Origin: Octopus vulgaris
Lineage: Eukaryota
Direction: 5' to 3'
Assembly: GCA_951406725.2 (NCBI GenBank)
Contig: OX597815.1
Location: 5,642,001-5,706,000, forward strand
DNA length: 64,000 nt
The notes beneath the pieces were generated by a model. It did not search any database. It had not been told where the DNA came from and saw only the letters and a list, made by a program, of their open reading frames with translations. This document shows, piece after piece, positions 48,501 through 51,500 of this stretch. A program made the position numbers and the translations under genes. How positions within the stretch are numbered: the stretch's first letter is position 1; every line of letters starts with the position of its first letter.

Positions 48501-51500
48501 TGGCCGTTTGCCAGCTCTGTCTGGCACCTGTGCGGGTGGCACGTAAAAAGCACCCACTACACTCACGGAGTGGGTGGCGGTAGGAAGGGCATCCAGCCGT
48601 AGAAACACTGCCAGATTTGACTGGGCCTGATGAAGCCTTCTGGCTTCACAGACCCCAGTAGAACCATCCAACCCATGCTAGCATGGAAAACGGACACTAA
48701 ACGATGATGATGATGATGATATATTTATATATATAATATATATATAATTTACAAGATAAGGGCAGAAGAAAAATTCTAATACCAAATATGCCGAAACAAA
48801 AAATTGTCAATAACAATTATAATTTATGCGTCTTGAAACAAACCAATAGAAATCTCTAAAAAATTCGTTATTACCATATTGGTCCAATTTCGGGGTTAAT
48901 TCATAAGAAAATTTTCCCCTCTTCAGCGGCAAATACGCGAGATATAAGTGAAATACTTACTCACACCCATGGAAAAAGCAAGCACTAAGTCCTGAGCAGA
49001 CTTAAGTACCCCAAATATATCCAAAATAGAAAAATCTTCGGCACATCTCGCAGTATTTGCCGCTGAAGAGGGGAAATTTTCTTATGAATTAACCCCAAAA
49101 TTGGACCAATATGGTAATAACGAATTTTTAGAGATTTCTATCGGTTTGTTTCGGCATATTTGGCATTAGAATTTTTCTTCTGTCCTTATCTTGTAAATTA
49201 TTTATAAATTTAACCTTTAAAGGTATTTTTTGATATGCTGGCCATTGATAAACAATTTTTCCCGAAAAAATTTTTATCCTACATTAGTTATATATATATA
49301 TATATATATATGTATATATGTATATATATATATATGTATATATACATATATACATATATATATATACATGCATACATATATATACATACATATATATATA
49401 TATATATATATATATATATATATATATATATATATATATATATATATATATAAGTGTGCATGTATATATATATATGTATATATTATATATTATATCATCA
49501 TCATCATCGTTTAACGTCTGTCTTCCATGCTAGCATGAGTGGAACAGTACCACAAGAGCCGGCCAGGCTGAAGCCTATACCAGACTTCAGTGGCTATTTT
49601 GGCAGGATTTGCACCTGTAATTCAAAAGAATAATGAAGATGATGATAATGATTATATATATATATATATATATATATATATATATATATATATACATTAT
49701 TAAGAAAAAAGTTAATCAAATTTGGCTAAAAACTATTTATTTAATGCTTTTGTCCCTTTCAGGGACTCATCATGAATGGGGATTAATACATGAAAGAGAC
49801 AAAAGTGTTAAAGCCTTGACTGACCTTTTACTCTTGATATATAAAATCTGCACACCACTCCAGACAATCTATACATGTACACACACACACACACACACAC
49901 ACACGAAACAAAGGACTAAAACTCCATCTCTGGAATTTGGATAACAATAATGATAAGTGCAGTAAAAACTTGAACCTATCCTGTGCCTTTCATAATAAAC
50001 TTATTTATATATTTCTCAATTCTCCTACATTTGTATAGCAAATATAAATTTACTTTCTTGCTAGCAAGATTAAAGCCTCTAATTTGAGGGGAAAAGACAG
50101 GTGGTTACTGTGGTGCAACTGGTAGCACATCTCTCTCAGCTGCAGAAGATGCAGGGTTTAAATCTCACAGGATGCTTTCCACCTTTTTTTGTCCATCCAA
50201 AGCATTTTTAACCTAATTCATTAAAACCTATCATTAATTGGTGAATTAACTTCAAGATACATCTTCATTAAAGACCTTTTGAAGAAGGATATACATTTCA
50301 ATGACAATAAGCTAATGCAGGTCTATATTTAAGAGATGAGGAACTTTGTACATTATTTACATTTGACGGATATTTGTCCTCATCTTGTTTGTTGTTAACA
50401 CAACATTTCAGCTGATATACCCTCCAGCCTTCATCAGGTGTCTTGGGGAAATTTCGAACCTGGGTTCTCATTCCTAAAGTAACTATTTTCGATGTTATTA
50501 TTATTATTATCATTATTGTTATTGTTCAGGTCACTGCTTGGAATCAAACTCGGAATCTTGGGGTTAGCAGCCCGTGCTCTTAACTACGCCATATGCCCGT
50601 GAACAATAATAATAATAATAATGATGATGATGATGATGAGGATGATGATAACATCAAAAAAACTACCTTAGAAATGAGAACTCAGGTTCGAAATTTCCCC
50701 AAGACACCTGAAGAAGGCTGGAGGGTATATCAGCCGAAATACTGTGTTAACAACAAACAAGATGAGGACAAATATCCATCAAATGTAAATAATGTAAATA
50801 ATGTAATATGCTAATGGTTTAGTACAACACTCAAGCATAGATAGGAATACAAAAAGCAAAAATAAAAAATTGGTAAGAAAAGAATAGGAAGAACCAGAAG
50901 AAACTGTTGCAGAGTTTCCAGTCGACCATAACCAGTGTTGTGACCGGAACAGTCAACAGCCACAGCTACACTCCTCACTGTTGACATCCCAAACACCTGG
51001 AAAGATATTTGCAAAATATTATTATACATGTGTACATATTAGTGTCTGAGTACTTTGATACACATATATGTGTATATACATATACACATGTATTCCTACT
51101 ACAAATATATAATGAAAACTTATTATGATAGCATGAAATTGTATCATTAACATTAACTACTTAGTCATAATTAGCACAAGTGAAACCGGTCGACTATGTA
51201 AATATACTATTTCATTAATATATGTGTGTGTGTGTGTGTGTGTGTGTGTGTGTGTGTGTGAATAGCAACTCATCATTGAACAACATGATTTACTACTACC
51301 ACTACGAAGCCTGATTTAAACTAATAACAGGGGGAATTACTCCTTGAACAATGACATTTTTTCATCCTGAAGAGGTCGTACAAACTATGCATACATCCCT
51401 GCATATAAATAAGCAGCAATTTGCAGTTGATATGATCGAAACACATATTGGACAATTATTATGAATAAACCAAACGGAAAGTCTGGATGTTCAAATTCTT

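What the first reader, a model, noticed from the sequence alone, without database searches (positions are those of the whole stretch)
50325..50805. tRNA-derived head sandwiched between inverted hammerhead modules: candidate Penelope-mobilised SINE
Seen on the minus strand: tRNA-like head (A-box, ctgctaa loop resembling tRNA-Ser GCU, B-box), then (AAT)n, then a ~180-bp hammerhead module. An inverted second module sits upstream, with symmetry extending to ttattgttca/tgaacaataa. Established: SINEs normally borrow LINE 3' ends. Inference: a Pol III head fused to a PLE-type ribozyme end would be an unusual SINE class. The module also occurs without the head at 35920-36110.
Basis: partly seen in the sequence, partly recalled or inferred. 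Interest (0 to 1): 0.75.

Follow-up and report, generated by a model that had tools for sequence, protein, structure and literature searches.

The report
Penelope end-repeat pair with tRNA head
This is a back-to-back pair of copies of a very common octopus repeat that carries a hammerhead (self-cutting RNA) motif and was likely pasted in as one event by a Penelope-type jumping gene; its unusual feature is a tRNA-like start that would let RNA polymerase III read it, which is untested.

Summary
The structure is real and is one insertion. A direct unit (tRNA-like head, (AAT)n, 178-bp minimal-hammerhead module with a ~30-nt tail) is joined head-to-head to a headless, tailless inverted copy, and a 12-bp target duplication flanks the pair. 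Public runs show that head and module are both high-copy, that the head usually runs on into the (AAT)n linker, and that the family has two preferred 3' ends ~30 nt apart. Chance co-insertion is therefore unlikely. This matches the published anatomy of Penelope pseudo-LTRs: inverted pair, one-sided tail, minimal hammerhead, reading frame entering the tail. I read it as solo Penelope end repeats with a tRNA-derived head rather than a self-propagating SINE, but I found no autonomous partner, so that choice stays open. The Ser-GCU match is copy-specific, the family's B box is imperfect, and all three hammerheads in the window are decayed. Pol III plus hammerhead SINEs are known in Schistosoma. 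The scan already reported what appears to be this family at another locus (e1-8669850). New variant of a known kind.

The parts
50805..50816 (-). target-site duplication, upstream copy (CATTAGCATATT)
   Evidence: abuts the end of the inverted arm
50600..50804 (+). inverted arm: TGAACAATAA, (AAT/GAT)n, module ending at the short 3' end; no head, no tail
50703..50748 (+). decayed minimal type I hammerhead of the inverted arm (C at core position 16.1, where 79-93% of laid depth has T)
   Evidence: table 3, place 50742
50529..50598 (-). tRNA-like head, 70 nt here; family copies carry 3 more nt in the A box; 5' and 3' ends partly pair like an acceptor stem
50581..50591 (-). A box, damaged in this copy by a 3-nt deletion; family contigs read TGGCGTAGTGG
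   Evidence: tables 4 and 7
50540..50549 (-). B box GTTTGATTCC, one mismatch to GTTCRANNCC; no variant restoring the C is listed at 3% or more
   Evidence: table 3
50496..50528 (-). TGAACAATAA plus (AAT/AAC)n linker
   Evidence: loose ends at 50521-50525
50318..50495 (-). hammerhead module of the direct arm, with tail
50397..50442 (-). minimal type I hammerhead: helix I 5 bp, CUGAUGA, unpaired A, helix II 6 bp, GAAA, no loop 3; predicted cut between 50402 and 50401; this copy has U at 11.1 and 15.2 where most laid depth has C
   Evidence: places 50405, 50410
50319..50471 (-). ATG-started open frame (51 codons) across hammerhead and tail; candidate N-terminus of the parent Penelope ORF (unconfirmed)
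50318..50348 (-). optional 3' tail, on this arm only; 50342-50334 pairs with 50385-50377 in a 9-bp stem
   Evidence: (loose ends at 50318, 50322, 50349)
50306..50317 (-). target-site duplication, downstream copy (CATTAGCTTATT)
35916..36124 (-). second family copy: (AAT)n plus module with tail, no head; interrupts a SINE; no target duplication identified

Best explanation
The locus is one insertion of two oppositely oriented copies of a high-copy octopus repeat with a tRNA-like start and a minimal hammerhead motif, flanked by a 12-bp target duplication, and it is likely a pair of solo end repeats (pseudo-LTRs) written in by a Penelope-type reverse transcriptase/endonuclease. Proposed working: (1, inferred) transcription starts at the first base of the tRNA-like head, probably by Pol III. 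(2, inferred from the anole element PAc) the Penelope protein nicks both strands of an AT-rich target 12 bp apart and primes cDNA from each nick at one of two internal start sites ~30 nt apart, giving one arm with the tail and one without. (3, inferred) the two cDNAs meet head-to-head; here the second stopped before the head and joined through a 2-nt overlap (TG, 50600-50601). (4, inferred) short copies end at the tail and would lack the downstream ORF stretch that PAc needs on its template, so they are probably dead-end products of longer master elements rather than self-propagating SINEs. Shown here: geometry, target duplication, two preferred 3' ends, recurrent head-linker and linker-module junctions, recurrent 5' boundary at the head. 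The hammerheads of this locus are decayed and lie on opposite strands, so they are unlikely to cut.
For: Target duplication at both outer ends. Two clusters of family 3' ends: loose ends at 50318/50322 and at 50349 in 161/202/147 contigs (X2), 121/149/157 (X4) and 146/209/152 (X10), with heterogeneous AT-rich flanks, agreement 0.41-0.46 (top rows only, 1,253 rows not shown). Published Pen2a anatomy is the same: shorter inverted 5' pLTR, 31-bp tail on one arm, TSD, first ORF codons in pLTR and tail (PMC3846280 passages). PAc cuts and extends both strands, prefers ATT and starts RT 111-118 nt after the start of stem II (PMC11167929 main text); here the long end lies ~113 nt after the start of helix II. 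The hammerhead fits the PLE minimal type (PMC4209133), and most laid depth keeps the pairing bases (50405: 74-83%; 50410: 61-79%). Head contigs run on into (TTA/TTG)n on the + strand in 4 of 4 runs; on the 5' side 294/167/236/54 contigs read the head's start followed by a short inverted copy of it. The frame is open across both arms and has one early stop in the third copy; 2% of shuffles keep that frame open, 7% any frame.
Against: I found no autonomous partner. No long protein starts with this peptide except host gene models that absorbed the repeat. No Penelope RT or GIY-YIG was found in 254 of 311 candidate frames of the window. No shared sequence shows up beyond the tail or before the head in the majority consensus. 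A sharp 5' end at tRNA position 1 and thousands of short copies are equally what a SINE gives. The open frame is weak evidence, and related peptides were found by a search that selects for open frames. Against Pol III: the family B box lacks the conserved C, and cloverleaf tests are negative. No contig spanning head, linker and module was examined, since the tool skipped the simple repeats; the junction pieces have fewer than 31 letters on the linker side.
Confidence: 0.6

Rival explanations
1. A true Penelope-dependent SINE: a tRNA-derived Pol III head fused to the end of a Penelope element, whose ~290-nt copies are themselves transcribed and re-copied in trans.
For: 5' boundary at tRNA position 1 with an intact family A box; high copy number (5,419 head and 39,040 module contigs laid in run X2); no shared upstream or downstream sequence in the majority consensus; no TTTT on the sense strand in 284 nt; no parent ORF found.
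Against: PAc needs ~55 nt of template beyond the RT start sites, which short copies would lack (PMC11167929, applied by analogy). The B box is imperfect. About one TTTT is expected from base composition (69 T in 284 nt), so its absence means little. An earlier scan note reports the unit as the end repeat of a coding element (e1-8669850, not verified here).
Confidence: 0.27
2. A Schistosoma Sm-alpha-like or retrozyme-like element in which hammerhead cleavage of Pol III multimers releases the template.
For: Pol III promoter followed by a hammerhead, as described for schistosome SINE-like repeats (PMC6765202 passage). Some related peptides are tandemly repeated, e.g. P0004 and P0011.
Against: Family 3' ends lie ~50 and ~80 nt downstream of the predicted cut site, not at it. 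No direct tandem of this family in the window. The two hammerheads here are on opposite strands. In PAc, cleavage is dispensable for insertion in vitro.
Confidence: 0.06
3. A MITE or foldback DNA transposon with long terminal inverted repeats around a captured tRNA-like loop.
For: ~205-bp inverted arms at both ends, a target duplication, and a very stable hairpin (z = -32).
Against: The arms are unequal (tail on one only); single arms occur alone (35916-36124); the 5' junction varies between copies; the hammerhead and two 3' ends fit Penelope.
Confidence: 0.04
4. Chance: an unrelated SINE head and two modules landed in the same microsatellite.
For: The module occurs without the head (35916-36124), and summed depth is higher for the module than for the head. 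One loose-end row (15 contigs, X2, place 50547) shows heads with another 3' continuation.
Against: One target duplication encloses everything. The same head-to-linker junction recurs in 4 of 4 runs. One contig in run X16 joins the head's 5' part directly to the module at a shared AAGA, as an internal deletion of a linked copy would.
Confidence: 0.03

Closest known systems
Penelope/Poseidon PLE pseudo-LTRs: Pen2a/Pen2 of Adineta vaga (PMC3846280, passages) and PAc of Anolis carolinensis (PMC11167929, main text)
   Same: Shorter inverted pLTR at the 5' side, ~30-nt tail on one arm, target duplication, palindromic head-to-head junctions, hammerhead near the ORF start, AT-rich targets, similar spacing from helix II to the end.
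   Different: Here the unit starts with a tRNA-like A/B-box head and an (AAT)n linker; Pen2a has TATA/Inr-like motifs. No ORF lies between the arms, and no parent ORF was found here.
Minimal type I hammerheads of metazoan PLEs (Cervera and De la Pena 2014, PMC4209133, passages and section 5)
   Same: Helix I 5 bp, long helix II, unpaired nucleotide before stem II, G10.1-C11.1, palindromic 15.2-16.2; that paper also reports opposite-strand pairs 100-700 bp apart and mostly solo motifs.
   Different: No tRNA head in the parts read ('tRNA': 0 occurrences in the main text). The copies here are decayed.
Schistosoma SINE-like hammerhead repeats (Sm-alpha, Sj-alpha), seen only through review PMC6765202 (passages); originals not read
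   Same: Pol III-type promoter followed by a hammerhead in a high-copy non-coding repeat.
   Different: Described as tandem units liberated by cleavage, with a canonical ribozyme; no Penelope tail, inverted pair or ORF start in the passages read.
Animal non-LTR retrozymes (PMC7229834 passages; bioRxiv 10.64898/2026.07.22.740005 part 1 of 5 and passages)
   Same: Short non-coding type I hammerhead repeats proposed to derive from and ride on PLE pLTRs.
   Different: Defined as direct tandem repeats making circular RNA; this family is dispersed and inverted here, and the preprint's main text has no 'tRNA', 'pol III' or 'promoter'.

Membership tests
Penelope-like element pseudo-LTR | Minimal type I hammerhead | tested here: met
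   Motif and helices by inspection and folding; most laid depth keeps the pairing bases. Rfam hammerhead models do not score it.
Penelope-like element pseudo-LTR | Optional 30-40-nt 3' tail (two 3' ends) | tested here: met
   Loose-end clusters at 50318-50322 and 50349; tail on one arm only.
Penelope-like element pseudo-LTR | Head-to-head inverted arrangement with target duplication | tested here: met
   short inverted copies of the 5' end in other family contigs.
Penelope-like element pseudo-LTR | ORF begins within pLTR and tail | tested here: inconclusive
   Frame open in both arms, one stop in the third copy; 2-7% by chance; no continuation found.
Penelope-like element pseudo-LTR | Flanks an RT plus GIY-YIG ORF in full-length copies | not testable with these tools
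   No genome held; none in 254 of 311 window frames. Claimed by e1-8669850, unverified here.
Penelope-like element pseudo-LTR | Hammerhead self-cleavage | not testable with these tools
   Needs a bench assay; local copies are decayed.
tRNA-derived SINE | 5' head with A and B boxes at tRNA spacing | tested here: met
   A box complete in family contigs, B box 9 of 10; 7 of 20,000 shuffles.
tRNA-derived SINE | Recognisable parent tRNA (Ser-GCU as proposed) | tested here: not met
   Family loop is CTACTAA; Rfam and default ARAGORN negative.
tRNA-derived SINE | Dispersed, high copy, defined 5' end | tested here: met
   (thousands of contigs per DNA run; depth is not a copy number).
tRNA-derived SINE | Pol III transcription | not testable with these tools
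   Only contigs were available; run X16 is merely guessed to be RNA.
tRNA-derived SINE | Short copies propagate independently of the partner's own RNA | not testable with these tools
   Needs subfamily analysis on an assembly.
non-LTR retrozyme / Sm-alpha type | Direct tandem units with ends at the ribozyme cut site | tested here: not met
   No tandem of this family in the window; the listed family ends lie downstream of the cut site (top rows only). Genome-wide tandems not examined.
MITE / foldback transposon | Equal terminal inverted repeats and a constant internal structure | tested here: not met
   Unequal arms, solo arm, variable 5' junction.

The most novel reading that the evidence does not exclude
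An octopus Penelope lineage captured a tRNA-type Pol III promoter as the start of its end repeat, and the resulting ~290-nt unit broke free as a Penelope-mobilised tRNA SINE with thousands of copies: a SINE class driven by a telomerase-related RT rather than a LINE, showing directly how a SINE is born from its partner's own promoter repeat.
Probability: 0.27. Interest if true: 0.72.

Novelty: new variant of a known kind. Interest (0 to 1): 0.45.

Why it matters
SINEs are classically paired with LINEs (general knowledge). A tRNA-type head on a Penelope end repeat means either a Penelope element read by Pol III or a Penelope-mobilised SINE. I found neither described in nine literature searches, but Repbase, Dfam, SINEBase and subscription papers could not be searched. 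The family also offers a natural test of the two-start-site, two-strand priming seen in vitro for PAc: every inverted pair should have one tailed and one tailless arm inside one target duplication. Practically, many octopus 'unclassified SINEs' (893 recently active families in O. vulgaris, PMC13282606) may include such units, and gene models absorb the repeat (P0002, P0013). Read-through of an inverted pair would give a ~200-bp RNA duplex, a likely editing or small-RNA substrate (inference).

Tried and rejected
Rfam on the window and on three sub-stretches: no tRNA or hammerhead at the locus. Relaxed ARAGORN: call indistinguishable from shuffles. Exact DNA pattern of the hammerhead in metagenome, viral and prokaryote collections: 0 matches each. 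Protein-based locus searches: none in metagenome or viral contigs; two short bacterial matches (L001, L002) that I regard as chance. Searches for a long protein starting with the module peptide: one O. sinensis gene model in which the peptide is followed by an unrelated cysteine-rich protein; 54 hits among representatives, 53 of them 44-195 aa and one unrelated 2,124-aa repeat protein; none above 132 aa with the alignment; 15 short hits; no Atlas hit. These are weak negatives. Pfam on 254 of 311 stop-to-stop frames of 55 aa or more (57 skipped, chiefly frames over already recognised repeats): only a LINE-type RT fragment, a mariner-type transposase and one weak ABC2 match. Three candidate host exons gave no Pfam match at E up to 5. 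The absence of TTTT was rejected as evidence for Pol III (about one expected). Presence in run X16 was not taken as expression, because the run is only guessed to be RNA and contigs give no ends or strand. Summed depth was not converted into copy numbers. The scan's sequence look-ups returned nothing. Ferbeyre 1998 and Lunse 2017 are not held. No supplements were read; those of PMC4209133 and PMC13282606 could contain this family.

Full report
Observation. On the minus strand the locus reads: target copy (50816-50805), inverted arm (50804-50600), head (50598-50529), TGAACAATAA plus (AAT/AAC)n (50528-50496), module (50495-50318), target copy (50317-50306). The arms are 91.8% identical over 147 non-repetitive bases. 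A third module with tail but no head lies at 35916-36124; the head occurs once in the window. The flanking 12-mers match at 11 of 12 positions; 55 of 5,000 control pairs of 25-nt windows share such a 12-mer, without requiring adjacency to a boundary. The structure is therefore best read as one insertion. The module's translation occurs in gene models labelled Octopus sinensis and O. bimaculoides, so the family is an octopus one; the window's species was not determined.

The hammerhead. GACAC-CUGAUGA-A-GGCUGG...UCAGCY-GAAA-YGUU-GUGUU gives helix I of 5 bp, helix II of 6 bp, an unpaired A before helix II and no loop 3. This is the minimal type described for metazoan Penelope-like elements, where opposite-strand pairs 100-700 bp apart and solo motifs were also noted (PMC4209133, passages and section 5). 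Rfam does not score it. All three local copies are decayed: the direct arm has U at 11.1 and 15.2, the inverted arm has C at 16.1, and the solo copy has mismatches in helices I and II. Laid contigs mostly carry the pairing letters: 74-83% at 50405, 61-79% at 50410, 79-93% at 50742.

The family. No genome was held, so I laid contigs of 4 of the 24 listed runs (three organism labels). On the whole locus 39,040, 18,576, 34,246 and 4,263 contigs were laid; the tool skipped the central simple-repeat part, head included. The best-supported loose ends on the 3' side cluster at 50318/50322 and 50349 (X2 161/202/147, X4 121/149/157, X10 146/209/152 contigs), with unrelated AT-rich flanks; 1,253 further rows were not shown. 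On the head alone 5,419, 2,297, 4,042 and 914 contigs were laid. Contigs leaving the head's 3' end continue into (TTA/TTG)n on the + strand in all four runs. One listed row (15 contigs, X2) shows another continuation, and 206 rows were not shown. Of the 32 longest pieces listed, 27 extend past the head's 3' end, but by at most 10 letters, below the tool's bridging standard. On the 5' side 294, 167, 236 and 54 contigs read the complete A box and the head's start, then a few bases of its inverted copy, then heterogeneous sequence (agreement 0.61-0.65 over 30 letters). Module contigs in X16 continue into (TTA)n, and one X16 contig joins the head's 5' part to the module at a shared AAGA. Both junctions thus recur, but no contig spanning all three parts was examined. 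Depth is no copy number; 'thousands' rests on contig counts.

The head. It has tRNA proportions: seven bases, then TGG opening the A box; a B box 42 nt after the A-box start in this copy; and partly paired ends. Against a strong claim: this copy lacks 3 nt of the A box; the family's loop is CTACTAA, so Ser-GCU is a private mutation; no variant restoring the B-box C is listed at 3%; and covariance-model and ARAGORN tests are negative or at shuffle level. It is a tRNA-like A/B-box head of undetermined parent, with untested promoter activity.

Mechanism. Pen2a of Adineta has a shorter inverted pLTR at its 5' side, a 31-bp tail on one arm, a target duplication, and the first ORF codons in pLTR and tail; palindromic junctions are common (PMC3846280, passages). 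The anole protein PAc cuts and extends both strands, favours ATT, starts reverse transcription at two internal sites that define the tail, 111-118 nt after the start of stem II, needs the first 172 nt of the ORF on the template, and does not need hammerhead cleavage (PMC11167929, main text). Here the long end lies ~113 nt after the start of helix II, one arm has each end, and an ATG-started frame runs through hammerhead and tail in both arms (2% of shuffles for that frame, 7% for any). I infer priming from both nicks and a head-to-head join. By analogy with PAc, tail-ended copies would be poor templates, which is my main reason for preferring 'solo pLTR' (0.6) over 'SINE' (0.27). A second hammerhead-like family in this window (18685-19155, 48735-49300) has the same inverted arms and a shared one-sided extension, with no such head visible, so the geometry is not special to this family.

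What failed. Four protein searches found no long protein starting with the module peptide other than host gene models. The window holds no Penelope ORF in 254 of 311 frames scanned, and majority consensus shows no shared sequence beyond either end. Rare full-length copies would be invisible to these tests, so they weaken but do not refute the pLTR reading. An earlier scan note (e1-8669850) describes the same architecture at another locus and calls it the end repeat of a coding element. It prompted my pLTR tests and gave the two paper leads; I confirmed the pLTR hallmarks but not the coding parent, and could not compare its sequence with this one. Note e1-8663237 likewise mentions a tRNA-like start spawning SINE-like copies. 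Neither is independent evidence.

Comparison and novelty. It works like a Penelope pseudo-LTR insertion; membership lacks only the parent ORF and a cleavage assay. It meets the head and dispersal criteria of a SINE, but Pol III transcription and independent propagation are untested. A Pol III promoter followed by a hammerhead is known from schistosome repeats (PMC6765202, passages; originals not read), and non-coding hammerhead repeats riding on PLEs are known as retrozymes (PMC7229834, passages; bioRxiv 10.64898/2026.07.22.740005, part 1 of 5 and passages). The Naiad/Chlamys paper (10.1101/2021.04.23.441226, passages) reports non-autonomous pLTR-forming elements but no tRNA head in its hits. 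The O. vulgaris repeat annotation (PMC13282606, part 1 of 3 and passages) does not mention hammerheads. Nine searches (mostly read as listings) showed no tRNA-headed pLTR or Penelope-mobilised tRNA SINE; repeat databases and supplements were not seen. Verdict: real, new variant of a known kind, interest 0.45.

Noticed in passing
window 18685-19155 and 48735-49300: Two copies of another family with a CTGAAGA...GAAA hammerhead-like motif, each an inverted pair with a shared extension of roughly 80 nt on one arm, set in (TA)n; no tRNA-like head seen.
   Followed up: partly
window 4866-5208 and 54932-55403: Related elements with inverted arms; a weak Rfam Hammerhead_HH9 match at 4987-5057 (-), 29 bits against a cut-off of 52, and a CTGATGA...GAAA motif near 55137. 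May belong to the rewired-hammerhead families in other scan notes.
   Followed up: no
window 34342-34620: Near-perfect 279-bp palindrome (97.5%) next to a LINE-type RT fragment at 34030-34365 (-).
   Followed up: no
window 51542-51759: Another imperfect palindrome with ~60-bp arms.
   Followed up: no
window 36124-36450: 327-bp segment, unique in the window, between two (TTA/TAT)n tracts directly upstream of the solo module; may be a LINE 3' end inserted into the linker (guess).
   Followed up: partly
window 50996-50905, 49614-about 49550, 41313-41253 (minus strand): Exon-like segments after good splice acceptors, suggesting that the insertion lies in an intron of a minus-strand gene; the peptides recall a vWA-domain protein (from memory); no Pfam match.
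   Followed up: partly
window 54194-54772: Mariner-type transposase fragment, Pfam Transposase_1, E 4.9e-16.
   Followed up: no
window 30788-31159, 40655-41027, 44824-45372: Head-to-tail tandems (2-3 units of 183-184 bp) of a common SINE-like repeat.
   Followed up: no
proteins P0004, P0011, P0036, P0056-P0060: Diverged sister families of the module peptide, some in direct tandem (retrozyme-like), from unnamed contigs up to 627 kb; they end at about the same place as this family's short or long end.
   Followed up: partly
window 7530-13800: A ~1.7-kb unit with (TGG)n arrays repeated about three times in tandem; could be a real tandem or an assembly effect.
   Followed up: no
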